A stretch of DNA of 64,000 nucleotides from Eledone cirrhosa (Eukaryota), in contig OZ024754.1 in the NCBI GenBank assembly GCA_964016885.1, forward strand, positions 40,610,001 through 40,674,000, in the 5' to 3' direction. Made by a program: the position numbers and the translations under genes. This document shows positions 1,845 through 53,520 of the stretch, in pieces. Each line of letters begins with the position of its first letter. Position 1 is the stretch's first letter. The notes beneath the pieces were generated by a model that did no database searches, was not told the origin of the DNA, and saw nothing but the letters and a program-made list of their open reading frames with translations.

Positions 1845-2103
1845 AAGAGAAAGAGAGATATATATATAGATATATAGTATGTGGTGGAGACACCACTAAT
1901 TGTGGGAGTACTCAATACATGGAGAGATACAGAGTGGGTATAGAGATATATAAAATACCAAATGTGGCACCAGGCAGTTTCGGCTTGTGACAAACAAACC
2001 AAAACCACCAGGTGCTGTGGTCAGGATTTTACACCTCTCTCTCTCTATATATATATATATACAATATATTAACAAATGGAAACTATATTTATAAAACCAT
2101 ATT

Positions 2104-2169
2104 TATTTTATTATACATATTTCAAGGGCCACCAAGGCAAATTATGGTGCGCTTTCATCAGATAAAATA
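2104..2169 (-). ncRNA. Type I hammerhead ribozyme motif (left arm of palindrome)
   Basis: TATTTTAT-CTGATGA-AAGCGCACCA..TGGTGGCCCTT-GAA-ATA(TG)TAT-A-ATAAAATA, with an 8-bp stem I. Confidence 0.7.
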
Positions 2170-2283
2170 CAATACAGATTAATTTTATAAATAAATATTG
2201 ACATACCCTGGAAAAAAGACAACCTTAACGATTGGAGCTTCCTGGGGTATGTCAATATTTATTTATAAAACTAATCTGTATTG

Positions 2284-2349
2284 TATTTTATCTGATGAAA
2301 GCGCATCATAATTTGCCTTGGTGGCCCTCGAAATATGTATAATAAAATA
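2284..2349 (+). ncRNA. Type I hammerhead ribozyme motif (right arm of palindrome)
   Basis: CTGATGA at 2292-2298 and GAAA at 2330-2333; stem I TATTTTAT/ATAAAATA; AUA triplet at 2339-2341. Confidence 0.65.
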
Positions 2350-3050
2350 AATATGGTTTTATAAATATAGTTTCCATTTGTTAATATATTGTATATTTAC
2401 TCCAATAATTTGTTGAGTGCTTTAGATCAGTTATAAAAATATTTTTAAGCTTGTTGTATCCCAACAAATTAAATATAACCTCTGTATATATATATATATG
2501 CATATACACTGTAAATGTGGTTGGTGTTAGGAAGGGCATCCAACTGTAGAAAACCTGCCAGACAGTCCTATGCGAGCAAGACAATCACTCTTGCCTCAAG
2601 TGGGACTACCCCCGTCCAAACCCATGCAAGCATGGAACACGGACGTTAAACGATGATGATGATGATGATGATATATATATTGTGGATAAATCCAGGATCG
2701 GATATATCTGCAAAAAAGGAGCGAAATTGCCGGCAGTCGGGACTAGAGGAATTTTGGTAAAGTTTATATGCATATTTTCTTCTAACTTATATTTTAGACC
2801 TAACTCCGTTTAGTTGATTATTTGTCAAGTCAATTTCTACGGGCTTAAAAGGAATGACTAAATAAATTTTATCCGGCTGTTCCTCGCGGAAAATAGTCTG
2901 TATCATTTGTCTATTATTTCTTCTAAGTACATTTTAAACTTATAGCCTCGTTTAAATGATTATTTATGTGGTTGATTTCTACGGAGAGGAAAGACTGTAT
3001 ATATTTTATCTAATAATTCTTCAAACTTGCAATTTTATATAGATATATAA

Positions 3051-3432
3051 AGGATATGCGACGGCTGGAGAGAAATGAGGCAAGCATGCTCCATTGGATG
3101 TGCGTGAACAACCCACCATGAATGTGTTGAGAGAGAAACTGTGTCTGAGAGGGATAGAATGTAGTGTACGGGAGAGGAGACTGAGGTGGTATGGACATGT
3201 GATGCGCATGGAGGATGACCGATGGGTGAAGAAGTGCCAGGAAATGCCAGTTGAAGGAAGACGTGGTAGAGGTAGACCACGAAAAACATGGGCGGAGGTG
3301 GTGAGAACAGACCTCAGATCATTGGAGATGACGAAGGACCATGACGAGTGGAGAGATGCTGTGCTGAATAAGACCCGTCCCACCCTTGCGAGCAGGGAAG
3401 TGCGGACGTAAAATGATGATGATGATGATGAT
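3051..3432 (+). mobile_element. RTE-clade LINE 3' fragment with (GAT)n tail
   Basis: ORF ...RERRLRWYGHVMRMEDDRWVKKCQEMPVEGRRGRGRPRKTWAEVV..., the typical RTE ORF2 end. Confidence 0.9.
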
Positions 3433-3528: not shown

Positions 3529-3564
3529 TCTTCTGATGAAGGACTAGCGTCCGAAACGTTAAGA
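3529..3564 (+). ncRNA. Minimal type I hammerhead ribozyme (Penelope-type)
   Basis: TCTT-CTGATGA-A-GGAC(TAGC)GTCC-GAAACGTT-AAGA; loopless palindromic ACGT stem III. A second copy with the same downstream tail lies at 28069. Confidence 0.75.
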
Positions 3565-3660
3565 CCCTCTTCCTGCTATTTCAAGCGTTAACCTAATATA
3601 TTCCTTTCATATACTGTACTGATTGTGTTGTTATTTCTGTTTACCTTTTACATACATATG

Positions 3661-7899: not shown

Positions 7900-8430
7900 A
7901 CATCTCTTGTTCATTATCCCATGAAGAGGGTTGACATGTGCGGTTGGGCTGTAAGCGGTATCACGACTGGAATTTGCAGCCGACATGGTGTTACTTAACT
8001 TGACAGAAGGTGATCTCTGACTTGCACTCGATAGGTTTCATGCCAAGTACTGCATGGACGAAATGAAAATCAGTGCTGCCAAAACTGAGATAATTGTCCT
8101 CTCAAGGAAGCCTGCGCAGTGCACGCTACATGTGAATGGAGTTCTACTGAAGCAAGTGGAGAAGTTCAAGTACTTCACAAGTGATGGAAGGCAGGAGGCT
8201 GAATTAAGTGCAAGAATTGCAAAAACTGGTGCCGTAATGCTCCAACTTCAGCATTCAGTAATTAGAAAAAGGGAGGTAAGCGTAAAATCCAAACTCGCCA
8301 TCTTCAATTCGGTATTAGAGCCAACCCTTACTTATGGTAATGACCGAAAGAATACAAACGGCTGAAATAAGAGTCCTCTGAAGAGTCTTTGGAGTAATGT
8401 GACTCGATAAAGTATGTAGCTTGGAGATCA
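7900..8430 (+). mobile_element. Degraded LINE reverse transcriptase fragment (RTE-like)
   Basis: MKISAAKTE..LKQVEKFKY..SARIAK..KLAIFNSVLEPTLTYG resembles the post-YADD RT thumb region; stops and frameshifts surround it. Confidence 0.8.
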
Positions 8431-23834: not shown

Positions 23835-24780
23835 TTATAGAGATGGTGTAGAGACTGAAAGAGTATACAGGAAATGGTTTTCATGATTCAGAAATGGGGA
23901 CTACAGCATGTGGGATGAATCAAGAAAAGGGCACCGAAGAGGACTGGATTCTGATGCATTGGAAGCTGCTGTTGATGTAAACTCGACCATTACAGTTCAG
24001 GAACAAAGTACGGACTTCAATGCGAGTCATACCCCCATTCAAATGTTAGAAGATGGGTTCCACATGATCTCTCTGCAGACAACTTGTTGACTGCTGTGCC
24101 TCATTGCGTTCTCCTAAGCTGTAAATGACTTGTTTGAACAGAGTCATTACAGGAGATGAGAAATGAATATTATACTAGAATGTTATGACATCAATGGCTC
24201 AGTCATGGTGAAGAGCTAGCTCAGTAGCTTAGAAGTGGATTACATTGAAGATACTTCTGAGTGTGTGGTGGTATATGCAGGGATTAATTCATCACGAGCT
24301 GCTAGGTGATAATCAAACAATAACAGCCGGAGTCTATTGTCAACAGCTGAGATATTTCAAAGCAGTTATACAGTAAAAACGCCCATCATTAACAAAGAGA
24401 ATAGGAGTCATCCTTCATCTTGATAATGCGAGACCTCACACTGCACAAAAGACCAAAGATCTCCGAGAAAAATATGCCTGCAAAATAATGCTTCACCCAC
24501 CATATTGCCTGGATCTTGCACCAAGAGATTATCATCTCTTTAGAAGTTTGCAAAATCATTTGAGTGCATTAAAACTTACTTCAAGAGAAAGAGTTGAAAA
24601 TAAGTTAATTTCCTAAAGAATTTTATGAATGTGGGATTAAAAAAGGTTATTGACAGATGGAGAGATGTCATAGAGAAGAATGGTGACTACATTAAAGATT
24701 AAATAAATTATATTGTGTTTTTTTTTATTGTTTTATTGAGCCTTAAAAAACAGACAGAACTTTCATTACAACATGATATA
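23835..24780 (+). pseudogene. Degenerate Tc1/mariner (mariner-type) transposase
   Basis: RKWF.RFRNGD HTH region, LHLDNARPHTA, and PPYCLDLAPRDYHLFRSLQNHL (YSPDLAPSDY motif). Many stops; ends in a TIR-like sequence followed by TA. Confidence 0.85.
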
Positions 24781-27059: not shown

Positions 27060-27212
27060 CTGTTCATGAGTAAGACGCTGCTGTTCAGTGAAAGGTGGTT
27101 TGGATTGAAAGTTTCCAACAAATGAGCTTGACTGAGAAGACATGGAACTAGGTGACAAATTAGGCGGTGGTCCTGTGGCAGAAGCTCCTACATTCCTGTT
27201 GCTATAGGGATC
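27060..27212 (-). CDS. PAK4: Group II PAK, coding exon 3 (...QQRLTHEQ)
   Basis: Ends RLTHEQ, which continues into FRATLQ (PAK4 VSHEQFRAALQ). Donor CAG|GTACTT; acceptor taaag|GAT is a weaker AAG site, so the 5' edge is less sure. 153 nt, phase 0. Confidence 0.8.
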
Positions 27213-27679
27213 CTTTAGGTAAGAATACATTCACAGGAAAGGGAACACAAGGTCAGATAAAGACATGCAGCATGCATTATTACATAACATACATTGATTC
27301 AAACAAACATAAATAAATATATATTGGGTCGTCAAATATGAAATTTGTAGAAAAAAAAAAAAAAAAAATTCTTCAAATTTCATACTTGATGACCCAATAA
27401 TTAATATCATTCCAGTAAAAATTAACAAAATTCACATGCTAAGTTCTGATAAAGATGTTTCATATTTCTGCTTAAAAAGGTTATTTTAGATTTCATAATT
27501 TTTGTTAAATTCAAAATTCAGTAACATTTAAAAAAAAATACCTAACATGTGCTTACTATCTGAGATGATGAATAAAAAATGTTACAAACTTGTATTTCAA
27601 TATAGGGTAAAGGAAAGGAGAGTGCTCTATGTAAGCTACAGAGCTATTTAATTATCTAATAAACAACATAAGACAATTA

Positions 27680-27752
27680 TTCCATTTACCAAAGGTTTCA
27701 CGAAGACAGACGAGCTCAACACAGACATCTGAAATTGCTCATCAGAATGAAA
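27680..27752 (-). ncRNA. Type I hammerhead ribozyme, sense to PAK intron 2
   Basis: TTTCATT-CTGATGA-GCAA..CAGATG..CGTCTG..TCGT-GAAA-CC(TTT)GG-TA-AATGGAA. Confidence 0.75.
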
Positions 27753-27760
27753 ATTTAATC

Positions 27761-27833
27761 TTTCATTCTGATGAGCAATTTTAGATGTCTGTGTTGAGCT
27801 CGTCTGTCTTTGTGAAACCTTTGGTAAATGGAA
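27761..27833 (+). ncRNA. Type I hammerhead ribozyme (right arm of palindrome)
   Basis: Stem I TTTCATT/AATGGAA; CTGATGA at 27768-27774; stem II GCAA/TTGT; GAAA at 27814-27817; stem III ACC-TTT-GGT; GUA cleavage predicted after 27826. Confidence 0.8.
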
Positions 27834-27896
27834 TAATTGTCTTATGTTGTTTATTACATTATATATATATATATATATATACACGTATACATTATA

Positions 27897-28071
27897 CAGT
27901 GAAATTCCATTATAATGACATTCACGGGGTATAAAAAAAAATTTGTTGTACTAAATAATTCTTTATAACAAAATCGATCTAACACATCGAGTGTTTGGCC
28001 GGGGATTGAAAAAATTTCATTATCCTGAAAAATTTGTTATAATGGTATTCGTTATAACATAATTTAACCTG
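27897..28071. mobile_element. pogo/Tigger-like MITE
   Basis: TA-CAGTGAAATTCCATTATAA...TTATAACATAATTTAACCTG, an imperfect TIR pair with CAG/CTG ends. Confidence 0.5.
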
Positions 28072-28195
28072 ATGAAGGACTAGCATCCGAAACGTTAAGA
28101 CCCTCTTCCTGCTATTTCAAGCGTTCAAGCATTAACCTAATATATTCCCTTCATATACTGTACTGATTGTGTTGTTATTTCCATTTACCTTTTAC
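28069..28195 (+). mobile_element. Second copy of the hammerhead-bearing repeat seen at 3529-3650 (Penelope-like terminal fragment)
   Basis: CTGATGAAGGACTAGCATCCGAAACGTTAAGACCCTCTTCCTGCTATTTCAAGCG...TACCTTTTTAC is nearly identical to 3533-3650. The 5' strand of stem I is lost, and the copy ends in (CA)/(TA)n. Confidence 0.75.
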
Positions 28196-28205
28196 ACACA
28201 CACAC

Positions 28206-28247
<42 letters not shown>

Positions 28248-28297
28248 CTATAAGGATAAGGAACAAGGATTCAGTGTTGCATCATAACATATTTAAT

Positions 28298-28391
28298 AAC
28301 ATATTACATATGTTTCACTATCGCTCAGCTCGAGGTATGATCTATTATAGATCGAACCCGTCTCTGTAATCGAAAGATCATCAGATATGCT
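28298..28391 (-). ncRNA. Type I hammerhead ribozyme with long stem II, sense to PAK intron 2
   Basis: AGCATAT-CTGATGA-[TCTTTCG..CAG..CGGGT..GATCTAT-A-ATAGATC..ACCTCG..CTG..CGATAGT]-GAAA-CATATG-TA-ATATGTT; the island lies between two (TA)n tracts. Confidence 0.75.
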
Positions 28392-29165
28392 TGCTATATG
28401 ATCTTGTCTCCGATTCTATGCAACCATACAACTATATATATATATATATATATATATACAAGTGGAAGCTTAGTAAAATGGAAGCTTTGGCTGTGGCCAA
28501 ACTAACGACCTACAATTAGGAATGTGTGGCAAAGCACTCAATAAGGTAGGCCTTAGAGTAATAACATAGGTTTAGACAGCTTGACAAATTGAAAATTGCG
28601 GCAGGCAGACCTAGCCACACAATACCAAAACCACCGAAAAAACTAATCTATATATCTGTGCTAAGTATAAAATGATGTAAGCTATCTTCAGCACTTAATA
28701 TCATCAATGAATGTCAGAAGTATTAAAAGAGGATTAATACTATCAATAATAGTTTAGAGTGAATTAAAATACATATTTCAGCCACCATTGATAAATTTTA
28801 TCCTTAAATTATATATCCTTATTAATATTATATTTCTGTAAATCATTCTTTCCGTTTACAATAGAGTATGAAATGTCATAAATACATTTCAATTGGTATT
28901 TGAAATGTTCTAAATTACTGCTTTTCCTTTTATGAAGCCAATTAGTTCCCACGAGAAACCAGCTGTGGAAAGGTTTATAACTATCTGCTGGTTATAACTT
29001 CTGCCAGAAACATATTACTATGTTTCCGGTGGCAGGCAGCGAGATTTGAACTTGGAGTGTACAAAGCCAGAACAGATATCACATCCTGTCTGTAACACAG
29101 TACCGAATCCACTGCCCCAAGATTGGTACTTTAGTATTTTATTTGTTGACTCTAAGAGAATGAAA

Positions 29166-30415
29166 CCAGTAAGATTTGTACACACAGTACAGTGTGTTGG
29201 TAAGATTTGTACACACAGTACAGTGTGTTGGAAGGATTTGTACACACAGTACAGTGTGTTGGTAAGATTTGTACACACAGTACAGTGTGTTGGTAGGATT
29301 TGTACACACAGTACAGTGTGTTGGTAGGATTTGTACACACAGTACAGTGTGTTGGAAGGATTTGTACACACAGTACAGTGTATTGGAAGGATTTGTACAC
29401 ACAGTACAGTGTGTTGGTAGGATTTGTACACACAGTACAGTATGTTGGTAGGATTTGTACACACAGTACAGTGTGTTGGTAAGATTTGTACACACAGTAC
29501 AGTGTGTTGGAAGGATTTGTACACACAGTACAGTATGTTGGTAGGATTTGTACACACAGTACAGAGTGTTAGTAAGATTTGTACACACAGTACAGTGTGT
29601 TGGTAAGATTTGTACACACAGTACAGTGTGTTGGAAGGATTTGTACACACAGTACAGTGTGTTGGTAGGATTTGTACACACAGTACAGTGTGTTGGAAGG
29701 ATTTGTACACACAGTACAGTGTGTTGGTAAGATTTGTACACACAGTACAGTGTGTTGGTAAGATTTGTACACACAATACAGTGTGTTGGTAAGATTTGTA
29801 CACACAGTACAGTGTGTTGGTAAGATTTGTACACACAGTACAGTGTGTTGGAAGGATTTGTACACACAGTACAGTGTGTTGGTAGGATTTGTACACACAG
29901 TACAGTGTGTTGGTAGGATTTGTACACACAGTACAGTGTGTTGGAAGGATTTGTACACACAGTACAGTGTGTTGGTAGGATTTGTACACACAGTACAGTG
30001 TGTTGGAAGGATTTGTACACACAGTACAGTGTGTTGGTAAGATTTGTACACACAGTACAGTGTGTTGGTAAGATTTGTACACACAATACAGTGTGTTGGT
30101 AAGATTTGTACACACAGTACAGTGTGTTAGTAAGATTTGTACACACACTACAGTGTGTTAGTAAGATTTGTACACACAGTACAGTGTGTTGGAAGGATTT
30201 GTACACACAGTACAGTGTGTTGGTAGGATTTGTACACACAGTACAGTGTGTTGGTAACAGTAGTGTATTGATACACACGGTACAGAGTGTTGGTAACAGT
30301 ACAGTGTAGTGATACACACAATACAGTGTGTTAGTAACAGTACAGTGTATTGATACACACAGTACAGTGTAGTGGTACACACAGTACAGAGTCACACAGT
30401 ACAAGGTGTTGGTAC
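29166..30415. repeat. 31-bp minisatellite, about 35 copies plus a degenerate edge
   Basis: GATTTGTACACACAGTACAGTGTGTTGGTAA; each unit holds an ACACAC/GTGTGT hairpin. Confidence 0.97.
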
Positions 30416-31595
30416 AAATACTGAGGTATTTTATCTAATGCCAATTCGTGCCCTTTATTTAAAATATTATATCAACACATTTGAAACTGTGTAACAATAT
30501 TAATATCAGAATCAATACCAATCAGATAACAAAAGACACTTATCAATATCAATCAGATAACAAAACTTAATATCAGTATCAATACCAATCAGGTGGAGAG
30601 TTTAGCTCAATGGAATCACATCCAAAATGATATCAAAACAAATTGATATAAAAAATATCCAATGCTGAAGATAATAAATTAACAAAGAAAATAGGAAAAC
30701 AGAAAAGTATATCAAAGTATTAATAGCTAATTAACGAGGATCTAATATAGGGGAGGGGGGGGGGATCTTTAAACATATGAACATTTTGGGCATCAACTAG
30801 AAAACGATTTCACTATTTCAGAAATAATAAAACTAAAACTGTGAAACTGGTAAAATATTAAAACAGAAAATACCACGAGAATACATACAATAAGTATTTT
30901 AAGGCCATTTTTACTGTTAAATAATTGTTTCAACTTTTGGCACAAGGCCAGCAATTACCTCAGTGCATTACTGGTACTTTATTTTACCGATCCTGTAAGG
31001 ATGAAAAGCAAAGCTAACCTCGGCGGGATTTGAACTCAGAACGTAAAGGGCCATATCTCTATGCTTGCAAAACAGGGTATCTGATACTCTACCAATCTTA
31101 CTGCCAATCCTATTATGTAATCAGAACAACAATAAATATTTTAGACTACTTGATAGATAACTGCCTGAAACTGACCGTAGTTTTATGATACAAATCTATT
31201 TTTAAGTGGTTCCCCCTCTTATCATAATTTTATTTGTTATGTTCCAAATACCGGCTTACTAATTAGAGAGTTAATTATATTATAACTATATTACTGTTGA
31301 TCTGAATCAACAAGATCCCAGACTTCATTCACTTACTGAGTGGAGTGGAACTCATCAGATTGGACCAAGGAAACAATGTTTCCATTGGTCTTTCCAATTG
31401 CTAGTAATACCTACCAGTTTCAACTCCTGGCAGTTGGAGCAATGTGAAATAAAGTATCTTGCTCAAGGACGTAACACATAGCCCGGCCCAGGAATTCAAC
31501 TCACAACCTCACAATTGTGAATCCAATTCTCTAACCACTGACCCCTCCTAAGCCCTCCAAATTCTTGATTATTTTCAAAATGAGTTTAAAATCAT

Positions 31596-32765
31596 AAGAT
31601 AGTGTATTTCATTAGAAATATAGTAATGAAAGAGTTAAAGACATAGACAGTGTCTTTCATTAGAAATATGGTAATGAAAGGGTTAATGACATAGGCAGTG
31701 TCTTTCATTAGAAATATGGTAATGAAAGGGTTAAAGACATAGACAGTGTCTTTCATTAGAAATATGGTAATGAAAGGGTTAAAGACATAGACAGTGTCTT
31801 TCATTAGAAATATGGTAATGAAAGGGTTAAAGACATAGACAGTGTCTTTCATTAGAAATATGGTAATGAAAGGGTTAAAGACATAGACAGTGTCTTTCAT
31901 TAGAAATATGGTAATGAAAGAGTTAAAGACATAGACAGTGTCTTTCATTAGAAATATGGTAATGAAAGGGTTAAAGACATAGACAGTGTCTTTCATTAGA
32001 AATATGGTAATGAAAGAGTTAAAGACATAGACAGTGTCTTTCATTAGAAATATGGTAATGAAAGAGTTAAAGACATAGACAGTGTCTTTCATTAGAAATA
32101 TGGTAATGAAAGGGTTAATGACATAGGCAGTGTCTTTCATTAGAAATATGGTAATGAAAGGGTTAAAGACTTAGACAGTGTCTTTCATTAGAAATATGGT
32201 AATGAAAGGGTTAAAGACTTAGACAGTGTCTTTCATTAGAAATATGGTAATGAAAGGGTTAAAGACACAGACAGTGTCTTTCATTAGAAATATGGTAATG
32301 AAAGGGTTAAAGACAGAGACAGTGTCTTTCATTAGAAATATGGTAATGAAAGGGTTAAAGACTTAGACAGTGTCTTTCATTAGAAATATAGTAATGAAAG
32401 GGTTAAAGACTTAGACAGTGTCTTTCATTAGAAATATGGTAATGAAAGGGTTAAAGACTTAGACAGTGTCTTTCATTAGAAATATAGTAATGAGGGAGGG
32501 TTAAAGACTTAGACAGTGTCTTTCATTAGAAATATGGTAATGAAAGGGTTAAAGACTTAGACAGTGTCTTTCATTAGAAATATAGTAATGAGGGAGGGTT
32601 AAAGACTTAGACAGTGTCTTTCATTAGAAATATGGTAATGAAAGGGTTAAAGACTTAGACAGTGTCTTTCATTAGAAATATAGTAATGAGGGAGGGTTAA
32701 AGACTTAGACAGTGTCTTTCATTAGAAATATAGTAATGAGGGAGGGGTAAGGACAGTGTCTTTCA
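31596..32765. repeat. 48-bp minisatellite built from a MITE terminus
   Basis: AGACAGTGTCTTTCATTAGAAATATGGTAATGAAAGGGTTAAAGACAT, about 24 copies. Confidence 0.95.
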
Positions 32766-33376
32766 AAGAGCTATAACAAATACCGCAAAACAGCCAGTCT
32801 GACCAATTCAAACACATTCCCCCAATACATCACTGGTAATTTATTTTATCAACACTGAAATGATGAAAGGCAAAAGTGACATTGGTAGGATTTGAACTCA
32901 GAATGCACAAAACTGGAACAACTACCACCCCACTCTCTAATGTCTGCCAATTCACCTCATTTTCTTGATGTTATTCCAACCATTTACAAAGTAAGAGGGA
33001 ATTTTATCAATCATCAGTTCAGGTTCTGTTAACTACAAAATCACTGAGTAACAAATTCCTTAGTTTCACATACCATGATAAATTGCACCGAGTACTCTCT
33101 GTAATGTTGTTGATATTACAAAGATCATCCAACGAAGATAAATAAGGAACATATGAGCAAGACATGGTCCTCTGTTTAGTGAAGTCTTTAGACCACGACA
33201 TCCCGTCAACCCAAGTCAATATGGAAGACAGAAACCATGACAACCTGACAACCCATGTCACAACACAGATATAAAATGATGATGAAATACAACTAAAATG
33301 TTTGAACGCCTTTATCATTCATTAAATAAATATATGATGTGAATCTAAGGTCATATATGATCCAATAAAAGTTATT

Positions 33377-33925
33377 AAAAACTACCTAGCAAGCTACCAG
33401 TCTAGTTCGGGACTAATGTGCTACCAAACTAACCAATATTAAAACTACCTAGAAAGCTACCAATCTGGTTCAGGACTAATACCAAACTAACCAATATAAT
33501 AACTACCTAGCAAGCTACCAGTCTAGTTCGGGACTAATGTGCTACCAAACTAACCAATATAAAAACTACCTAGCAAGCTACCAATCTGGTTCAGGACTAA
33601 TACCAAACTAATCAATATAATAACTACCTAGCAAGCTACCAGTCTAGTTCGGGACTAATGTGCTACCAAACTAACCAATATTAAAACTACCTAGAAAGCT
33701 ACCAATCTGGTTCAGGACTAATACCAAACTAACCAATATAATAACTACCTAGCAAGCTACCAGTCTAGTTCGGGACTAATGTGCTACCAAACTAACCAAT
33801 ATAAAAACTACCTAGCAAGCTACCAATCTGGTTCAGGACTAATACCAAACTAATCAATATAATAACTACCTAGCAAGCTACCAGTCTAGTTCGGGACTAA
33901 TGTGCTACCAAACTAACTAATATAC
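33377..33925. repeat. Higher-order tandem repeat (about 60 / 121 / 242 bp)
   Basis: Alternating A/B monomers; TCTAGTTCGG recurs every 121 bp. Confidence 0.9.
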
Positions 33926-35661
33926 AGCTACTTGTAAGTGGCATACAGTAAAGTTAGGAAAATACTCACATACAAATCCAGCAACTAAAGTTAACAAGGC
34001 AATAATTTAGATTCAATTATTGACAAAAACAAAAAATATATTTTTTGAAAGGGAGATGATAATTTACTTTTAAACCAGAATAGAAAAAAAAATCCACTAA
34101 AGTTAATATTTTAACAAAATAGTGAAATATTTCTTATTTTTAGAAGTTCCATAGGCTCCATTTAGTTATGGCTAACCATTGGTTTGAATTTGTAAAGTTC
34201 TTCTACAAGGGTGCAAGCCTGGGCAAAAAGGATTTTGAGGAGAGTCAGCAGTCACCCATCCATTCTAATCTCCCCTCTCCACAACACCAATATTGTTCAA
34301 GGGAAAGAACAATACAGCTTAGCACCAGTGTCTTCACAAATTATATTTTGGACTGGAGTTACATGAAATAAAATGTTTTCTGAAGGACAAAATATGCTGC
34401 CCAGACGAAGAATTTAACTCATAACCATGAACCCAACACCCTAACCACTAAGCCATGTACCTTCACGTTTTACAAACAAATTAGAAAATAAATGAATTTG
34501 GACTTTTAATTATTCAGTGAATACAAATTCCCTTTAAATATATTTAGAGGCTGATGTTTGCATCTTAACATCTTTTAATGATTTAGAAAATATCTAAAAA
34601 TAGATTTGTTAATTCAAATGATTATAGTATCTTTACTAATGGATAAATATTGTGAAAATTTACAATATTAGAGTTAAGACTTTAATTTTATGTTGATGCA
34701 ATCATAGTGTTGCTTTGTACACCGAGGAATGTCTTGCTAACGTTGTTTCATGTGATAGAGGACATTAAGAGTTAAAACTAGTGACCATAAGGTTAATTTT
34801 TTCACTATGTACTAACCAAGACAAGGGGAATTATTCTCTTATTTAATTAATCTCATTTTAAAAACAGATAATGCTTCCATTTCAGAACTGAAGTATTTAG
34901 AGTTAGGTAAAACATCATGCTGCAAATCACACACAGCAGTTCATTTATTTGTTGAAATTTTAAGAACCCATGAAAGAATGGGAGCAGGGAAGCAAGAAAT
35001 ATTTTGAAAACAAAACAAAAAAAGAACAAACGACAATTTAACAGGAAAATAATTGAAATAAGCACATGGCTTTCAGTAAATGTGGAAACAAATACACTTA
35101 ATTCATTAAAAAAAACAACATTAAATTGAGAAAATACGAAACTAAAAAAAGTGATAAATATGATACACAGTCTAAATCTGAAATTTACTAGTGATAAATA
35201 ATAAATTTTAAAAAAAATTTAAAGCCTGGCAAAATCCTTGAGGTTTATCAGGGGCGAGATTGTCCCAGTTCTATTGATGTTGAGGAATTGAGAGCAGCTT
35301 CTGTTGGTGGTACTCAGTCTTAGCCAAGTTGACTGAAGTGTTTTGATCAAGGACAGTCTGGGAAGCTTGCAATATTACAGTCCTGAATCTAACACCCTAA
35401 CCACTAGGCCATGCACCTTCCCTAGTGATTTAGGACAGCCTATATTTTTAATGTCTATACTGAAATATACTAAATATGCAACAACAATAAACTATGTTTA
35501 ATTGAAGATTAAACAAAGCTCATGATAAAGGAATGGGCAGTGAATTGACAGAGTCATTAGAACATCAGATAGAATGCCTTGCAGTATTTGTTCCAACTCT
35601 CAGCTCCCTCAGTTCAAATCCCGCCGAGGTCAACTTCACCTTTTAACCATTCAAAGTTGAT

Positions 35662-35945
35662 TAAAAAAGTACCGGTCTAGAATTGTGGTCGATTAAAAAG
35701 TACCAGTCTGGTACTGAGGCCAATTAAAAAAGTACCAGTCTGGTACTGAGGCCAATTAAAAAAGTACCAGTCTAGTACTGAGGCCAATCAAAAAAGTACC
35801 AGTCTAGTACTGAGGCCAATCAAAAAAGTACCAGTCTAGTACTGAGGCCAATCAAAAAAGTACCAGTCTAGTACTGAGGCCAATCAAAAAAGTACCAGTC
35901 TAGTACTGAGGCCAATCAAAAAAGTACCAGTCTAGTACTGAGGTT
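35662..35945. repeat. About 32-bp minisatellite amplified from a SINE interior
   Basis: AAAAAAGTACCAGTCTAGTACTGAGGCCAATC units directly follow a SINE A head. Confidence 0.9.
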
Positions 35946-37804
35946 GATTCTTCCTCTATATCTCTTTCTCACTCTCTTTATCCTTCTATGGAAGAAATCT
36001 GCTGTATTCAGGCTTGGAGAGGAGATGGACTTCACCAGGTTTTAAAATGCCCTAGAAATGCCACATGTCAATAGCTACCCCTAACAACTCCACCGGGAGT
36101 TACAGGTCCATACATACATAATATAGGAATAAAAATAGGTCTTAAATTTAATGAATGAAAAAAAAAGCCAACATTTTCTCATCTAACACATACTGATGTA
36201 ATTGTATTTATATTTATGCAATATTGGCATTTCTTTCAAAGATAATACCCTAAAACTAGCAGAACTACAAATGTCAAATGTACAAAAAGAATGATAGTAA
36301 AATCATTCTGTTAAAAAAGCTAACAGTTGACATTTAAGTAGGAAATTATTGTAGTTTATAAAGTTCCGACAAAATTCATTAATACAGTTACATTTTTCTT
36401 TTCTTTTTTTATATATCAGAGTGAGATTTGTATAGTTAAGAGTTACAATCAGTTTAATTTACATTTACCCAGGCTGACACAAAGTTTAAACTGTTAAAGT
36501 CTGTCCTAAGCCCCAGAGCTTATCTCAGTTTCAGTGGTGTTAACTCTGTAGCATTTAAACTGACCAAAATTCTCTCATCTCTTTCTGTTCAAACCAGCCG
36601 TAACTGGCCACTCATATCAATGTTAACGTATTGTTCTCAAAATAAATATCAAAATCTCATAGATTCAATATTATGTGAGATATTATGTGAGAGAAAGCCT
36701 TTATAAAATAGTATATATAAAGTAATGTGAATGCTAAAGGGTTTAAACAACTGAGAGTACAAGACTGGATAGGATGCCAGTCCTTCACAGAGTTAAACCC
36801 CTAACTGCTCCTGCTGTTGGTACTCATCTTCAAATGAGTATACTGGAGCAATGTGAAATGAAATGTTTTGCTCAAGAACATGACATACCACCTTGACCAG
36901 GAATCAAACTCACAACCATGAGCCCAATTTCCTAAACACAGAGCTAAATACACTCTCTAGATTCCAATAGTCATTTCATTTCGTAAGCCTTTATCAAATC
37001 AACAGAACTTAGAATTGTATAACATTTGTATTCAAATTTGTTGTAGTGCACCTGAGCACTGTACACAATAATTTCAAACTAGAAATTCAGTTCATAATAT
37101 TTTCAAAATATTTAAATTCAGGATTTAAAATGGTTTTTAAGTTAGACATAAAGCCACTAATTTGGGAGAAGGAGAAAGTCAATTATATCAACCCCAGTAC
37201 ATAACTGGTACTTTATCTCATCAAGCCTGGAAGGATGAAAGACAAAGTTGACCTCAACAAGATTTGAACTTAGAATGCAAAAGAATTGGAATAAATACTG
37301 CAAAGTATTTTGTCTGACACTCTACCAATTCTACCAATCCACAGAACTAATTTGTGACTTTAGTTAAAAACAGAAAATATATGTCAGCATCTAAAATAGA
37401 CGATCATACTTTCATTAACCCCTACTTTCATTAACCCTTTAGCATTTAAACCAACTGCATCTGGCTAGAATTTTATCACCTCTTTTTGTTTAAACTGGCC
37501 ATAACTGGCCACTCATACTGACATTAAGGTATTGTTCTCAAAATAAATAATATCAAAATCTCAGATTCAATGTTATGTGAGATAATTATGTGATTATTAT
37601 TTACCAGTGAATTGGCAGTATCGGTAGAGGGTTGGACGCCATGCTTTGACGCATAGAGTTACGGCCCTTGCCATTCTGAGTTCAAATCCCGCCGAGGTTA
37701 ACTTTGCCTTTCATCCTTACGGGGTCGATAAAATAAAGTACCAGTAATGTACTGGATAATTGCTGGCCTTGTGCCAAAAGTAGAAACAATTATTTACCAC
37801 GACA

Positions 37805-38190
37805 ATACAATAGTATATCAGAGTAATGTAGATATTATGTGAGGTAAGGCCTTTACCATGAAAATACAATAGTATATACAGAGTAATGTAGATATTATGT
37901 GAGGTAAAGCCTTTACCATGAAAATACAATAGTATATACAGAGTAATGTAGATATTATGTGAGGTAAAGCCTTTACCATGAAAATACAATAGTATATACA
38001 GAGTAATGTAAATATTATGTGAGATAAAGCCTTTACCACGAAAATACAATAGTATATACAGAGTAATGTAGATATTATGTGAGGTAAAGCCTTTACCACG
38101 AAAATACAATAGTATATACAGAGTAATGTAGATATTATGTGAGGTAAAGCCTTTACCATGAAAATACAATAGTATATACAGAGTAATGTA
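37805..38190. repeat. 60-bp minisatellite inside a piggyBac-like MITE
   Basis: AAAATACAATAGTATATACAGAGTAATGTAGATATTATGTGAGGTAAAGCCTTTACCATG x6, then the MITE TIR. Confidence 0.92.
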
Positions 38191-38276
38191 AATGCTAAAG
38201 GGTTAAGAAACCTTTGTAATTCTTAATTAATGAATAATTATGTATTTTTTTAGCAAAGAAGCTTAATTAAACAAAC

Positions 38277-44479: not shown

Positions 44480-46820
44480 TACACTTCCTGTGTTCTACCA
44501 TAAAGCCACTAGCTTCCATACATCCACCTCAAATATCTACACTTCCTTCCTGTGTTCTACCATAAAGCCACAGCTTCCATACATCCACCTCAAATATCTA
44601 CACTTCCTTCCTGTGTCCTACCATAAAGCCACAGCTTCCATACATCCACCTCAAATATCTACACTTCCTTCCTGTGTTCTACCATAAAGCCACTAGCTTC
44701 CATACATCCACCTCAAATATCTACACTTCCTTCCTATTTTCTACCATAAAGCCACTAGCTTCCATACATCCACCTCAAATATCTACACTTCCTTCCTTCC
44801 TGTGTTCTACCATAAAGCCACTAGCTTCCATACATCCACCTCAAATATCTACACTTCCTTCCTTCCTATGTTCTACCATAAAGCCACAGCTTCCATACAT
44901 CCACCTCAAATATCTACACTTCCTTCCTGTGTTCTACCATAAAGCCACTAGCTTCCATACATCCACCTCAAATATCTACACTTCCTTCCTGTGTTCTACC
45001 ATAAAGCCACTAGCTTCCATACATCCACCTCAAATATCTACACTTCCTTCCTTCCTGTGTTCTACCATAAAGCCACTAGCTTCCATACATCCACCTCAAA
45101 TATTTACACTTCCTTCCTTCCTGTGTTCTACCATAAAGCCACTAGCTTCCATACATCCACCTCAAATATCTACACTTCCTTCCTTCCTGTGTTCTACCAT
45201 AAAGCCACTAGCTTCCATACATCCACCTCAAATATCTACACTTCCTTCCTGTGTTCTACCATAAAGCCACAGCTTCCATACATCCACCTCAAATATCTAC
45301 ACTTCCTTCCTGTGTTCTACCATAAAGCCACTAGCTTCCATACATCCACCTCAAATATCTACACTTCCTTCCTTCCTGTGTTCTACCATAAAGCCACTAG
45401 CTTCCATACATCCACCTCAAATATCTACACTTCCTTCCTTCCTGTGTTCTACCATAAAGCCACTAGCTTCCATACATCCACCTCAAATATTTACACTTCC
45501 TTCCTTCCTGTGTTCTACCATAAAGCCACTAACTTCCATACATCCACCTCAAATATCTACACTTCCTTCCTTCCTGTGTTCTACCATAAAGCCACAGCTT
45601 CCATACATCCACCTCAAATATCTACACTTCCTTCCTGTGTTCTACCATAAAGCCACTAGCTTCCATACATCCACCTCAAATATCTACACTTCCTTCCTTC
45701 CTGTGTTCTACCATAAAGCCACTAGCTTCCATACATCCACCTCAAATATCTACACTTCCTTCCTTCCTGTGTTCTACCATAAAGCCACTAGCTTCCATAC
45801 ATCCACCTCAAATATTTACACTTCCTTCCTTCCTATGTTCTACCATAAAGCCACTAGCTTCCATACATCCACCTCAAATATCTACACTTCCTTCCTGTGT
45901 TCTACCATAAATCCACAGCTTCTACACATCCACCTCAAATATCTACACTTCCTTCCTTCCTGTATTCTACCATAAAGCCACTAGCTTCCATACATCCACC
46001 TCAAATATCTACACTTCCTTCCTTCCTATGTTCTACCATAAAGCCACTAGCTTCCATACATCCACCTCAAATATCTACACTTCCTTCCTTCCTATGTTCT
46101 ACCATAAAGCCACTAGCTTCCATACATCCACCTCAAATATCTACACTTCCTTCCTATGTTCTACCATAAAGCCACTAGCTTCCATACATCCACCTCAAAT
46201 ATCTACACTTCCTTCCTTCCTATGTTCTACCATAAAGCTGCTAGCTTCCATACATCCACCTCAAATATCTACACTTCCTTCCTTCCTATGTTCTACCATA
46301 AAGCTGCTAGCTTCCATACATCCACCTCAAATATCTACACTTCCTTCCTTCCTATGTTCTACCATAAAGCCACTAGCTTCCATACATCCACCTCAAATAT
46401 CTACACTTCCTTCCTTCCTATGTTCTACCATAAAGCTGCTAGCTTCCATACATCCACCTCAAATATCTACACTTCCTTCCTTCCTATGTTCTACCATAAA
46501 GCCACTAGCTTCCATACATCCACCTCAAATATCTACACTTCCTTCCTATGTTCTACCATAAAGCCACTAGCTTCCATACATCCACCTCAAATATCTACAC
46601 TTCCTTCCTTCCTATGTTCTACCATAAAGCCACTAGCTTCCATACATCCACCTCAAATATCTACACTTCCTTCCTATGTTCTACCATAAAGCTGCTAGCT
46701 TCTACACATTCCCCTCAAATATCTACACTTCCTTCCTATGTTCTACCATAAAGCTGCTAGCTTCTACACATTCCCTCAAATATCTACACTTCCTTGCTTC
46801 TGTCATAAAGCCACTAGCTA
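44480..46820. repeat. 61-66-bp minisatellite, about 36 copies
   Basis: TGTTCTACCATAAAGCCACTAGCTTCCATACATCCACCTCAAATATCTACAC(TTCC)2-3; length variation comes mostly from the TTCC count. Confidence 0.97.
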
Positions 46821-49463: not shown

Positions 49464-49806
49464 TGGAGGCACATGGCTTAGTGGTTAGAGCATTGGGCTT
49501 GCAATCGAAAGGTTGTGAGTTCAATTCTCAGACCGGGTGATGTGTTGTTTCCTTGAGCAAGACACTTTATTTCACATTGCTCCAGTTCACTCAGCTGTAG
49601 AAATGAGATGATAGGGACTGGGGTCCCTATCATTCCACTGCAAAGTGGTCGTGGAGGTGCCACGGCAAAAAAAGCACCCAGCACTCACTGTAAATGAGGT
49701 TGGTGTTAGGAAGGGCATCCAGCTGTAGAAATCAAGCCAGAATCAGTTCCCGTCCCACCCTTGCAAGCAGGGAAAAAGCAGACGTAAAATGATGATGATG
49801 ATGATG
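49464..49806 (+). mobile_element. tRNA-derived SINE family B with RTE-derived tail (near-identical copies at 52945-53283 and 59682-60025)
   Basis: A box TGGCTTAGTGG, B box GAGTTCAATTC, internal hairpin GATAGGGAC-TGGG-GTCCCTATC, and tail CCACCCTTGCAAGCAGGGAA..GACGTAAAA(TGA)n. Confidence 0.85.
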
Positions 49807-51520
49807 ATACACATATGCGTGTATATTTATATATCTTTTTAAAAAATGAATTGTAATATTTCTAACATTTAATTATTTAATTAGATATAAAAAATAAATA
49901 AACAAACTTCCATAAGAGTAAACAGCAATTAATGAAAATAAATATTTTAATTGTTTTTCAATAAAGAAATTCCATTGTGATGACAAGCTTCTAACTGTAA
50001 ATTGTTCACATTGTTCTGATAACTATTTTCTCTCCATATTTCTCATGGAAGACACTGTCTATGATTTTCAAATCATTTTTTAAATAATCAAGAATTTGGA
50101 GGGATTTAATAACAAATGTAATTCTTCGTTAAGCTGGCGTTTGGAGAATATCAAAGGTTCTCATAAAAATAGGATGGAACATTTTTAGATAATTATAGAG
50201 ATTTTTAGTTTTGTATCATAGAAACAGAGTTATTGATATTAAAAGGGGTTTATATCTTAGGAACACAGTAATTGATATTAAAAGGGTTTGTATCTTAGGA
50301 ACACAGTAATTGATATTAAAAGGGGTTTGTATCATAGGAACAGAGACATTGATTGATATTAAAAGGGGTTTGTATCTTAGAAACAGTAATTGATATTAAA
50401 AGAGGTTTTTTAATGTCATCCCAGAATAGGGGATTAGCAACAATGCCTAAGCAACGGTTTATAAATAACCCAAGAATTTTTATTAGAAAAATCTAAATTT
50501 TCAATTACATAAAAATAAAGAATTTAATATTTATTCAAACTTATAGAATAAGGATTGCAAAAGACTATAAATGAGAGGAAAGGGAGGTGAAAAAACAAAG
50601 ATTATTAAGTAACAGGGGAAGGTGAGAGGGTGACAGACTCAATACCTATGTCAGAGTGTTTAAGCTGTGCCCTGCAGACAGTGGCCAGGGTGGGGTACCT
50701 GGTTTAGTCACCGACCACTCAACCATGAAGCAGGTTGTAGTAGGTTACATGGTACCAGTAGCAGACAGAAGCCTGACCTGACCTGGCCAGGGTCTGGAGG
50801 GGGACCTGGTTTAGTCACCGACCACTCGACCATGAAGCAGGTTGTAGTAGGTTACATGGTAGCAGACAGAAGCCTGACCTGACCAATAAATTATATACCA
50901 GTTGTTAGTGTAAGGTATCACAAATATAAATAATGATTTCTACTTTAGGCACAAAGCCAGCAATTTTGGGGGACGGGGAAAGTTGATTAAATCAACCCCA
51001 GGGCATTACTGGTACTTTATTTTATTGACCCCGTAATGATGATCAAAAATATAAATAATGGTAGTGGTTTCTAGCTTGCACATCCCATTATAATTAAAAG
51101 TCTGTTTTCCCTCTTAGCAAGGATTATGAGATATTAAAAAAAGGTGATTAGCAAGCTTTGATATCTTTCGAGGAGGGGTTTGTTTGCTTACAAAAAGAGT
51201 TACATTTGAATACTGTATACACTCTATACTTGTAGATAAGTTACAGGACTTTTGGTTGTTTGTTTCTTGTTAGTTTTTTTGTTTTTTTTTAACTAAAAAG
51301 TAAAAATACATAAATGAAAACGTCAAACATGAAAAAAACACATGCAACTTATCTACTGAACATTTATCTGGGTCTCAACAGTACATGCACACAGGCAAAT
51401 GACTGACTATGTAGGGCAGACTGGTCATGTCAATATACACTATGTGGATATCAGCATTATAAACAAATTTATGTTTATGATGGTTTGTATAAGAAAATTA
51501 CTTCCATGTGTGTAAAACAT

Positions 51521-53520
51521 GTGTAGCTGTCTATAATCCTAATACCCATTAAATGTTCCATATATTGTGTCGCTGTCTATAATCCTAATACCCATTAAAT
51601 GTTCCATATATTGTGTCGCTGTCTATAATCCTAATACCCATTAAATGTTCCATATATTGTGTAGCTGTCTATAATCCTAATACCCATTAAATGTTACATA
51701 TATTGTGTAGCTGTCTATAATCCTAATACCCATTAAATGTTCCATATATTGTGTAGCTGTCTATAATCCTAATACCCATTAAATGTTCCATATATTGTGT
51801 AGCTGTCTATAATCCTAATACCCATTAAATGTTCCATATATTGTGTAGCTGTCTATAATCCTAATACCCATTAAATGTTCCATATATTGTGTAGCTGTCT
51901 ATAATCCTAATACCCATTAAATGTTAAATATATTGTGTAGCTGTCTATAATCCTAATACCCATTAAAAGTTACATATATTGTGTCGCTGTCTATAATCCT
52001 AATACCCATTAAATGTTAAATATATTGTGTAGCTGTCTATAATCCTAATACCCATTAAATGTTCCATATATTGTGTAGCTGTCTATAATCCTAATACCCA
52101 TTAAATGTTAAATATATTGTGTAGCTGTCTATAATCCTAATACCCATTAAAAGTTACATATATTGTGTCGCTGTCTATAATCCTAATACCCATTAAAAGT
52201 TACATATATTGTGTAGCTGTCTATAATCCTAATACCCATTAAATGTTCCATATATTGTGTAGCTGTCTATAATCCTAATACCCATTAAATGTTCCATATA
52301 TTGTGTAGCTGTCTATAATCCTAATACCCATTAAATGTTCCATATATTGTGTAGCTGTCTATAATCCTAATACCCATTAAATGTTCCATATATTGTGTAG
52401 CTGTCTATAATCCTAATACCCATTAAATGTTCCATATATTGTGTAGCTGTCTATAATCCTAATACCCATTAAATGTTCCATATATTGTGTAGCTGTCTAT
52501 AATCCTAATACCCATTAAATGTTACATATATTGTGTAGCTGTCTATAATCCTAATACCCATTAAATGTTACATATATTGTGTAGCTGTCTATAATCCTAA
52601 TACCCATTAAATGTTCCATATATTGTGTAGCTGTCTATAATCCTAATACCCATTAAATGTTCCATATATTGTGTAGCTGTCTATAATCCTAATACCCATT
52701 AAATGTTCCATATATTGTGTAGCTGTCTATAATCCTAATACCCATTAAATGTTCCATATATTGTGTAGCTGTCTATAATCCTAATACCCATTAAATGTTC
52801 CATATATTGTGTAGCTGTCTATAATCCTAATATCCATTAAATGTTCCATATATTGTGTAGCTGTCTATAATCCTAATACCCATTAAATGTTCCATATATT
52901 GTGTAGCTGTCTATAATCCTAATACCCATTAAATGTTACATATATGGAGGCACATGGCTTAGTGGTTAGAGCATTGGGCTTGCAATCGAAAGGTTGTGAG
53001 TTCAATTCTCAGACCGGGTGATGTGTTGTTTCCTTGAGCAAGACACTTTATTTCACATTGCTCCAGTTTACTCAGCTGTAGAAATGAGATGATAGGGACT
53101 GGGGTCCCTATCATTCCACTGTAAAGTGGTCGTGGAGGTGCCACGGCAAAAAAACATCCAGCACTCACTGTAAATGAGGTTGGTGTTAGGAAGGGCATCC
53201 AGTGTAGAAATCAAGCCAGAATCAGTTCCCATCCCACCCTTGCAAGCAGGGAAAAAGCGGACGTAAAATAAAATGATGATGATATATTGTGTAGTTGTCT
53301 GTAATTCTAATACCCATTAAATGTTAAATATAATTTGTGTAGAGGTCTGTAATCTTAATACCCATTAAATGTTACATATATTATGTGTAGAGGTCTGTAA
53401 TCTTAATACCCATTAAGTGTTATATTGTGTAGTTGTTTGTAATTCTAATACCCATTAAATGTTACATATATATTGTGTAATTGTCTAATCCTAATACCCA
53501 TTAAATGTTACATATATTGC
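51521..53520. repeat. 46-bp minisatellite interrupted by a SINE
   Basis: GTGTAGCTGTCTATAATCCTAATACCCATTAAATGTTCCATATATT, about 31 copies, then SINE B (52945-53283), then about 5 diverged copies. Confidence 0.97.

What the first reader, a model, noticed from the sequence alone, without database searches (positions are those of the whole stretch)
28298..28391. Unshielded sense-strand intronic hammerhead with a long stem II and palindromic stem III
The CUGAUGA/GAAA/GUA core is intact, with a 7-bp stem I, a roughly 60-nt interrupted stem II capped by GATCTAT-A-ATAGATC, and ACATATGT as stem III, a shape that can favour dimeric cleavage. It is sense to the PAK pre-mRNA and has no antisense arm, so it could cut intron 2 co-transcriptionally. 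The first stem II position is U-U, which may reduce activity.
Basis: partly seen in the sequence, partly recalled or inferred. Interest (0 to 1): 0.7.

Follow-up and report, generated by a model that had tools for sequence, protein, structure and literature searches.

The report
Long-armed hammerhead in octopus transposon tail
A hammerhead self-cutting RNA motif with an unusually long side arm sits in an intron of an octopus PAK kinase gene, as one copy of an abundant repeat that is likely the tail of a Penelope-like jumping gene, and it is predicted to stay folded shut rather than cut the host message.

Summary
The motif is real. It is a type I hammerhead on the minus strand with an intact core, a 7-bp stem I, a 61-nt helix II and a palindromic stem III, sense to coding intron 2 of an octopod group II PAK gene. 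0 of 300 shuffled windows gave such a motif.

It lies in a 182-bp insert between (TA)n tracts and belongs to an abundant repeat family (1,229 contigs in one run, 430 in a second species). Across copies the core is almost invariant, while N7 and helix II vary.

Three first-reader points need correcting. U-U at 10.1/11.1 is the majority state in one run and a known active variant. 'Unshielded' fails: a family-wide downstream palindrome is predicted to bury the cut site (+8 kcal/mol). The stem II cap varies between copies.

Best reading: the truncated 3' end of a (TA)n-targeting Penelope-like element, whose ribozyme would work as a dimer or protein-assisted in the parent RNA. This solitary copy has drifted and likely does not affect PAK splicing. 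No RT link or cleavage was shown. What is new is modest: 31-61-nt helix II hammerheads in three families, longer than a published descriptor allows.

The parts
28251..28432 (-). Whole insert: 182-bp 3'-terminal fragment of a repeat family, likely a 5'-truncated Penelope-like pLTR plus tail
   Evidence: Bounded by (TA)n on both sides; 1,229 contigs in X1 and 430 in X4 match it; depth falls to 0 at 28426-28432; loose ends before 28258 are TA-rich
28385..28391 (-). Stem I, 5' strand
   Evidence: Pairs with 28304-28298; 28390 changes G-U to A-U in 43% of X1 depth
28378..28384 (-). Catalytic box C3-A9 (CUGAUGA)
   Evidence: N7 (28380) varies U/C/G across copies, G8 shows only a minor variant, the other five none listed
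28317..28377 (-). 61-nt interrupted helix II starting with U10.1-U11.1; tip hairpin 6 bp plus 3-nt loop
   Evidence: -15.5 kcal/mol alone; 25 of the 60 positions 28318-28377 have a listed variant, U11.1 none (counted by hand)
28313..28316 (-). Catalytic box G12-A15.1 (GAAA)
   Evidence: no listed variant in 4 of 4 runs
28306..28313 (-). Self-complementary 8-nt stem III (2 bp plus tetraloop as monomer, 8-bp duplex as dimer)
   Evidence: no listed variant
28304..28305 (-). Predicted scissile bond after GUA (A17 = 28305)
   Evidence: position by hammerhead numbering, cleavage not tested
28298..28304 (-). Stem I, 3' strand; can also pair back on stem III, closing GUA in a loop
   Evidence: -2.3 kcal/mol hairpin 28314-28298
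28286..28298 (-). Downstream arm of a 29-nt palindrome (28286-28314) predicted to sequester the cut site; could alternatively extend stem I
   Evidence: present in family copies by variant table and loose ends
28251..28285 (-). Conserved 3' tail ending at (TA)n
   Evidence: 2 listed variant positions in 35 nt plus TA-rich loose ends
28208..28247 (.). (TA)n tract, 3' flank of the insert
   Evidence: Sequence
28433..28458 (.). (TA)n tract, 5' flank of the insert
   Evidence: Sequence
27213..38276 (-). Host intron: coding intron 2 of a group II PAK gene (exon 2 at 38825-38277, exon 3 at 27212-27060)

Best explanation
The motif is an intact type I hammerhead carried by one solitary copy of an abundant octopod repeat, likely the truncated 3' end of a (TA)n-targeting Penelope-like retroelement, and in the PAK pre-mRNA it is predicted to fold shut and rarely cut. 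Inferred mechanism: the parent element's endonuclease nicked a (TA)n tract, and reverse transcription from the element's fixed 3' end stopped after about 180 nt, leaving only the ribozyme and tail. In the parent RNA the ribozyme would be switched on when two tandem copies pair their palindromic stems III, or when the element's protein refolds the RNA. The same five-base words occur three times each (CAUAU at 28400, 28389, 28312; AUAUG at 28311, 28304, 28292), so a lone copy pairs stem III with the stem I 3' strand or with the downstream arm and hides the cut site. Shown: sequence, gene context, family abundance, core conservation, drift of this copy. Predicted: folds. Inferred: Penelope parentage, dimer or protein activation, no effect on PAK.
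For: Family: 1,229 contigs laid in X1, 78 in X5, 430 in X4 (a second organism), 696 reads in X21. X1 summed depth peaks at 118,345 while listed single contigs have depth 4-14, which points to thousands of copies (the tool warns depth is no copy number). Core conservation: 0 of 19 positions 28299-28317 have a listed variant, against 25 of 60 in helix II; N7, the one free core position, is the variable one. One helix II pair (28373/28321) shows letters compatible with U-A to C-G in X4, X5 and X21 (unphased). Penelope-like traits: fixed 3' end in TA-rich sequence, depth falling towards the 5' end, three 'opposite strand' joints and no tandem joints. Two other hammerhead families in this window form head-to-head inverted pairs flanked by (TA)n. 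Craig 2021 describes HHRs near 3' ends, inverted 5'-truncated copies and (TA)n targets for PLEs. Low activity. PLE hammerheads showed none as single motifs and low as dimers (PMC4209133); the anole PLE hammerhead needed protein (PMC11167929). The structurally closest tested type (axolotl Amex2: U-U base, 2-bp/tetraloop helix III) cleaved 22% in an hour as monomer (PMC7229834). Pol II needs about 16-19 s to cover 1,092 nt at the mammalian 3.5-4.1 kb/min quoted in PMC10919898 (my arithmetic). Hammerhead-cut introns were still spliced in vivo, as cited in PMC2995048. Drift: three helix II sites differ from 97-99% of X1 depth, and majority letters make helix II 2.9 kcal/mol more stable.
Against: No RT or GIY-YIG sequence was linked to this family; the two ~2.1-kb contigs in X4 that run upstream of the motif could not be read. 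The three octopus Naiad 3' ends in Craig's supplement do not match by eye, and five window motifs gave 0 hits there (line breaks can hide hits). Nearest-neighbour folding gives no credit for core or tertiary contacts, so all gaps are overstated, and no known-active ribozyme was run as a control. The other five motifs cost 2.8-8.7 kcal/mol even alone. Family-majority letters barely close the gap (0-2.7 kcal/mol), so the model also calls the family form inactive, which sits badly with its conserved core unless dimer or protein help is real. The double-hammerhead form stays 13.9 kcal/mol per site above the free dimer in the full element. The 3' tail is nearly as conserved as the core (3 of 47 positions 28251-28297 vary), so conservation there is not specific to catalysis. 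Laid records were preselected at >=80% likeness; the CUGA half rests on far lower depth (X1 about 2,200-3,100; X4 about 20-24); one variant row was not shown. X1 may be the source of the assembly.
Confidence: 0.7

Rival explanations
1. The insert is a dispersed monomer of a non-LTR retrozyme, an ORF-less 170-400-nt repeat that is transcribed, self-cleaved and circularised, and borrows a Penelope RT.
For: Size, a canonical-like helix III and the U-U base resemble axolotl Amex2 and invertebrate retrozymes (PMC7229834). Retrozymes are proposed to derive from PLE pLTRs, and 42-44% of Xenopus copies overlap introns (bioRxiv 10.64898/2026.07.22.740005), so the two readings grade into each other.
Against: No joint that returns to the start of a next unit; 3' loose ends read TA-rich rather than a following monomer; inverted joints are present. 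Single copy in the window. Contigs fragment at repeats, so arrays could be missed.
Confidence: 0.14
2. One reading: this copy cuts PAK intron 2 during transcription often enough to lower or time PAK mRNA output, by accident or as a domesticated element like the amniote intronic hammerheads or CPEB3.
For: All core positions intact, sense orientation. U-U supports more activity than other mispairs (PMC3088659). A roughly 12-nt window exists before the downstream arm is made, when the gap is smallest. A CAUAU/AUAUG extension of stem I with an internal loop can be drawn. Copies from elsewhere in the genome might pair in trans.
Against: Competing folds; near-private changes that weaken helix II; 1,092 nt to the acceptor versus 9,931 nt for CPEB3; exon tethering; it is one of probably thousands of copies, and no site-specific conservation was shown.
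Confidence: 0.08
3. The repeat is the tail of another element class (SINE or non-LTR) that captured a hammerhead, and its ribozyme no longer works in any copy.
For: No ORF link; tRNA-like SINE heads and LINE-like fragments occur elsewhere in the window; the family form is also predicted to misfold.
Against: N7 varies between subfamilies while neighbouring core bases do not, as expected when successive master copies were selected for catalysis; inverted joints and (TA)n targeting fit PLEs.
Confidence: 0.07
4. Chance match to the hammerhead consensus in AT-rich DNA.
For: No Rfam hammerhead hit; fold z-score only -1.44; a bacterial gene matched a 23-base version of the pattern by chance in a very large collection.
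Against: 0 of 300 shuffles; conservation pattern across copies; six other comparable motifs in the window, five of them in repeats.
Confidence: 0.01

Closest known systems
Type I hammerheads in pLTRs of metazoan Penelope-like elements (Cervera and de la Pena 2014, PMC4209133; variants with small palindromic helix III in Drosophila, rotifers, shrimp, mosquito)
   Same: Type I topology, palindromic stem III, mostly dispersed single motifs from truncated elements, inverted pairs 100-700 bp apart, enlarged helix II, predicted dimer dependence.
   Different: Helix II insert is 61 nt here versus 6-8 bp there. The base of helix II is N-U (U-U, C-U or G-U) rather than the conserved G10.1-C11.1 with one extra 5' nucleotide. 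Stem III is 8 nt. No ORF link shown here.
Axolotl HHR_Amex2 non-LTR retrozyme hammerhead (PMC7229834 section 15)
   Same: U-U mismatch at the base of helix II, two-pair helix III with tetraloop, very high copy number, weak as monomer and better as dimer.
   Different: Amex2 sits in 350-bp tandem repeats that yield circular RNA; this family looks dispersed in (TA)n with a far longer helix II; no circles shown.
(TA)n-targeting PLE clades Neptune, Hydra and Naiad (Craig et al. 2021, PMC8557442)
   Same: Insertion into (TA)n, fixed 3' end, inverted truncated copies. Some Naiads, including two cephalopod ones, are flagged as having core halves 35-50 nt apart that fit no descriptor (spacer limit 17 nt).
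   Different: No match to the three published octopus Naiad 3' ends; clade not determined.
Domesticated intronic ribozymes: amniote RECK/CTCL/DTNB hammerheads (PMC6155905) and the CPEB3 HDV-like ribozyme (PMC10919898)
   Same: Sense orientation within an intron.
   Different: Those are few-copy and conserved across species, and CPEB3 kinetics match the distance to the next exon; this one is a drifting member of a large repeat family.

Membership tests
Type I hammerhead ribozyme | Core C3 U4 G5 A6 N7 G8 A9, G12 A13 A14 A15, U16, H17 | tested here: met
   definition from PMC3088659
Type I hammerhead ribozyme | Stem I open-ended and paired next to the core | tested here: met
   7 bp; five inner pairs without listed variants, G-U to A-U at 28390
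Type I hammerhead ribozyme | Paired 10.1-11.1 (usually G-C) | tested here: not met
   U-U here; U, C or G opposite invariant U in the family. Tolerated natural variant, though it would fail the Perreault filter
Type I hammerhead ribozyme | Match to an Rfam hammerhead model | tested here: not met
   the five other repeat-borne motifs were missed too
Type I hammerhead ribozyme | Loop 1-loop 2 tertiary contact | tested here: inconclusive
   An extended stem I with an internal loop can be drawn; no partner identified
Type I hammerhead ribozyme | Site-specific self-cleavage | not testable with these tools
   Needs an assay
Penelope-like element | ORF with telomerase-like RT and GIY-YIG endonuclease | tested here: inconclusive
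   Insert is 182 bp between (TA)n with no coding capacity; longer copies could not be read
Penelope-like element | Hammerhead near the 3' end with a short tail | tested here: met
   Cut site 53 nt from a shared 3' end
Penelope-like element | Inverted 5'-truncated copies or partial tandems | tested here: inconclusive
   This copy has none; three opposite-strand joints in single contigs of other copies
Penelope-like element (Neptune/Hydra/Naiad type) | Insertion into (TA)n | tested here: met
   43 X1 contigs with TA-rich 3' loose ends
Naiad (published octopus families) | 3' UTR homologous to Naiad_Obim, Ovul or Omin | tested here: not met
   By eye on supplement part 24 and five motif searches; not aligned by program
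Non-LTR retrozyme | Head-to-tail ORF-less repeats of 170-400 nt | tested here: not met
   No tandem copy in window, no tandem joints; contig data weak for arrays
Non-LTR retrozyme | Abundant circular RNA | not testable with these tools
   No usable RNA run; X5 library type not on record
Domesticated intronic ribozyme | Conserved at the orthologous site across species | not tested

The most novel reading that the evidence does not exclude
Octopod genomes carry thousands of copies of an undescribed hammerhead design: a 30-60-nt helix II resting on an N-U base, wrapped in triplicated five-base words that hold a lone copy shut and let it open only as a dimer or on the retroelement's protein. This built-in safety catch would explain why sense copies are tolerated in introns. 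Such long-armed motifs could be what the unexplained 'half cores' of (TA)n-targeting Penelope-like elements are, meaning standard descriptors have missed a whole class.
Probability: 0.2. Interest if true: 0.6.

Novelty: new variant of a known kind. Interest (0 to 1): 0.3.

Why it matters
For the PAK gene, probably little. For ribozyme and transposon specialists, it shows hammerheads with helix II inserts of 31, 39 and 61 nt in three repeat families within one 64-kb octopus window, all missed by Rfam and longer than the 17-nt spacer used in Craig 2021. Counts of ribozyme-bearing Penelope-like elements may therefore be too low. If the self-locking fold is real, it gives a testable answer to how genomes tolerate thousands of sense-strand intronic ribozymes. 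The family is large enough for a genome-wide sense/antisense test in introns.

Tried and rejected
Rfam: no hammerhead match. No whole genome held, so no copy alignment, orientation statistics or parent element.

Pattern scans: metagenomes 1 locus, L001, a chance match inside a bacterial coding gene with no stem I, discarded; prokaryotic genomes 0 and viral contigs 0.

Naiad origin was tested against the Craig supplement and not supported.

I first read the PAK intron as 38276-22005; a missed exon at 27212-27060 corrected this. I considered the downstream palindrome a private tandem duplication and rejected this because family copies carry it. An apparent covariation of N7 with 28367 in an inactive 5' hairpin is inconclusive: it fits the G7 subfamily but not the commoner C7 one. 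The pair 28371/28323 does not covary cleanly either.

I laid 4 of 23 listed runs, on the 182-bp insert only, so empty-site alleles were not tested.

Literature: 'hammerhead ribozyme'+'octopus' 5 papers, 'Penelope'+'Neptune'+'Octopus' 2, 'hammerhead'+'long stem II'+'retrotransposon' 0, 'ribozyme'+'cephalopod'+'transposable element' 7. By title and abstract none describes this family. The library lacks most subscription papers, Repbase was not available, and Lunse 2017 (dimeric PLE hammerhead variants) was not held and could already cover such variants. Supplementary figures of PMC4209133 and PMC3088659 were not seen. Earlier scan notes: nothing by sequence, place or the first word set.

Full report
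Observation. On the minus strand the window reads stem I 5' strand (28391-28385), CUGAUGA (28384-28378), a 61-nt insert beginning and ending with U, GAAA (28316-28313), the palindrome ending at 28306, A17 at 28305, and the stem I 3' strand (28304-28298). All core positions as defined in PMC3088659 (passages) are met. A descriptor scan found seven motifs in the window with stem I >=4 bp. In 300 dinucleotide shuffles, 41 had at least one such motif, 2 had one with stem I >=7 bp, and 0 had that plus a palindromic stem III. Rfam found no hammerhead. The tip hairpin folds as 6 bp with a 3-nt loop.

Host gene. Exons on the minus strand match the PBD and kinase domains, group II PAKs in the PDB and Octopus sinensis PAK 5 at 89% over the variable exon 2, so the genome is an octopod's. 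tblastn places nine coding exons, including one at 27212-27060, with no residues missing around the insert. The motif is sense in coding intron 2 (11,064 nt), and the cut site is 1,092 nt before the acceptor.

The insert. The motif fills a 182-bp segment, 28251-28432, between two (TA)n tracts. It has no second copy and no long inverted arm in the window. Laying 4 of the 23 listed runs on it at 80% likeness gave 1,229 contigs in X1, 78 in X5, 430 in X4 (another organism) and 696 reads in X21. X1 summed depth peaks at 118,345 over 28300-28306, against 4-14 for listed single contigs; I infer thousands of copies, though depth is not a copy number. Depth falls towards 28432 and 3' loose ends are TA-rich, the profile of 5'-truncated insertions with a shared 3' end. 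Three joints change strand; none goes back as a tandem would.

Family conservation (variants from 8%, one row not shown, counted by hand). Positions 28299-28317, which hold stem I 3' strand, GUA, the palindrome, GAAA and U11.1, have 0 of 19 listed variants. Helix II has 25 of 60. In the first box N7 varies (X1 depth 2,727: C 1,209, G 247, rest U) and G8 has a minor variant (45 of 2,878 in X1; 20 of 152 reads from two starts in X21). Position 10.1 is U in most X1 depth (C 603 and G 74 of 2,849) and G in X4 (two contigs) and X21 (148 of 154). So the family has a free base opposite a fixed U. The 39-nt family at 27745/27768 begins helix II with G-U, and one arm of the 31-nt family with A-U. Against over-reading: the 3' tail is also well conserved (3 of 47), the records were preselected for likeness, and the CUGA half has thin coverage. 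This copy differs from 97-99% of X1 depth at 28324, 28359 and 28361, each change weakening a helix II pair; with majority letters at these and 28320, helix II goes from -15.5 to -18.4 kcal/mol. That looks like drift rather than refinement.

Is it shielded? A 29-nt imperfect palindrome at 28286-28314 covers the cut site and is present in other copies. CAUAU and AUAUG each occur three times in the insert, so stem III can pair with the stem I 3' strand or the downstream arm, and a separate hairpin can bury CUGAUGA. The predicted cost of the active fold is 4.6-4.8 kcal/mol for the motif alone and 14-15 for the insert. Adding 45 nt downstream and 10 nt upstream costs this motif 8.2 kcal/mol, against -0.6 to +2.0 for five other motifs in the window. 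As the transcript grows from 28432, the gap is 7.1 when stem I is just complete and rises from about 28286. The stem III palindrome is stable only between molecules (-7.0 versus +2.4). A double hammerhead lowers the gap from 4.5 to 3.2 per site for the motif, and from 15.8 to 13.9 for the insert. These models ignore core and tertiary contacts and I had no known-active control, so only the comparisons are informative. They also call the family-majority form inactive, which I cannot explain without dimer or protein help.

Mechanism. I infer a (TA)n-targeting Penelope-like parent. Craig 2021 (PMC8557442; passages, section 11, supplement tables and part 24) describes 3'-proximal hammerheads, inverted truncated copies and (TA)n targets. 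Cervera 2014 (PMC4209133; parts 1-2 of 4) found most PLE hammerheads dispersed as single motifs, inactive as a monomer and weak as dimers. The anole PLE hammerhead cleaved only with protein (PMC11167929, passages). The review PMC6765202 (passages) gives the same dimer picture. U10.1-U11.1 is natural and the best-tolerated mispair (PMC3088659 section 8). The axolotl Amex2 motif, with U-U and a 2-bp/tetraloop helix III, cleaved 22% in an hour as monomer and much better as dimer (PMC7229834 sections 14-15). At the mammalian elongation rate quoted in PMC10919898 (passages), 1,092 nt takes under 20 s; octopus rates are unknown. Introns cut by a hammerhead were still spliced in work cited by PMC2995048 (passages). 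A lone, drifted, self-locked copy is therefore unlikely to matter to PAK. The parent link is not shown: no RT was tied to the family, and the published octopus Naiad 3' ends do not match.

Rivals. A retrozyme monomer is plausible, and the preprint 10.64898/2026.07.22.740005 (part 1 of 5 and passages) argues that retrozymes derive from pLTRs, but no tandem signal appeared. An active or domesticated intronic cutter is not excluded, since the core is intact; conserved amniote examples are reviewed in PMC6155905 (passages). Chance is excluded.

Novelty. Hammerheads in Penelope tails inside introns are known, and earlier scan notes on shark genomes reach that verdict (unchecked). What my searches did not find in print is a cephalopod family, or a helix II of 31-61 nt on an N-U base, seen here in three families. 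Lunse 2017 was not available and may cover similar variants. PMC544870 and PMC10085705 were seen as passages only. Verdict: a real motif, a new variant of a known kind, with low odds of a host role; interest 0.3.

Noticed in passing
window 27651-27862: 212-bp head-to-head inverted pair (94% alike, -157 kcal/mol hairpin) next to (TA)n, each arm with a type I hammerhead: 7-bp stem I, 39-nt helix II starting G-U, GUA site. One arm is sense to PAK, about 440-650 nt from the acceptor, and fully paired with the other.
   Followed up: partly
window 2054-2399: 346-bp inverted pair (91% alike) next to (TA)n with a third hammerhead family: 8-bp stem I, 31-nt helix II, AUA site.
   Followed up: partly
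window 3533-3651 and 28069-28195 (+): Two copies (91% alike) of a minimal hammerhead with 13-nt helix II and ACGU stem III. The 3533 copy has a 4-bp stem I; the 28069 copy starts exactly at C3 and has lost it. Both end at CA/TA repeats. Three hammerhead-bearing inserts thus cluster in the last 1.2 kb of PAK intron 2.
   Followed up: partly
PMC8557442 supplement part 24, 3' ends of Naiad_Obim and Naiad_Ovul: By eye, these ends carry a GUA site segment, then a GAAAC segment, then CUGAUGA, with plausible 6-bp stem I and 5-bp stem III but a weak stem II. That order resembles the non-circular 'type SGC' hammerhead of PMC10085705, although Naiads are reported to lack canonical hammerheads. Not folded or tested.
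   Followed up: no
window 27060-27212 (-): PAK coding exon 3 (51 codons, ending RLTHEQ), easy to miss; 76% identical to O. sinensis over the aligned stretch, lower than most other exons.
   Followed up: yes
window 49474-49531 and 52955-53012 (+): Two identical tRNA-like matches lacking the acceptor stem, probably SINE heads.
   Followed up: no
window 29045-30400, 31450-32780, 51380-53000, 44500-46800: Long minisatellite arrays with 31-, 48-, 46- and about 66-bp units; the first two lie inside PAK intron 2.
   Followed up: no
window 24377-24613 (+), 3079-3408 (+), 8021-8362 (+): DDE_3 transposase fragment (Pfam E 4e-5, below cutoff); two ORF fragments that look LINE-derived by recall but had no supporting Pfam match.
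   Followed up: partly
window 29004-29029: 26-nt imperfect palindrome containing a GAAAC...GUA-like stretch similar to the 3' half of the finding's motif, with no CUGANGA box upstream.
   Followed up: no
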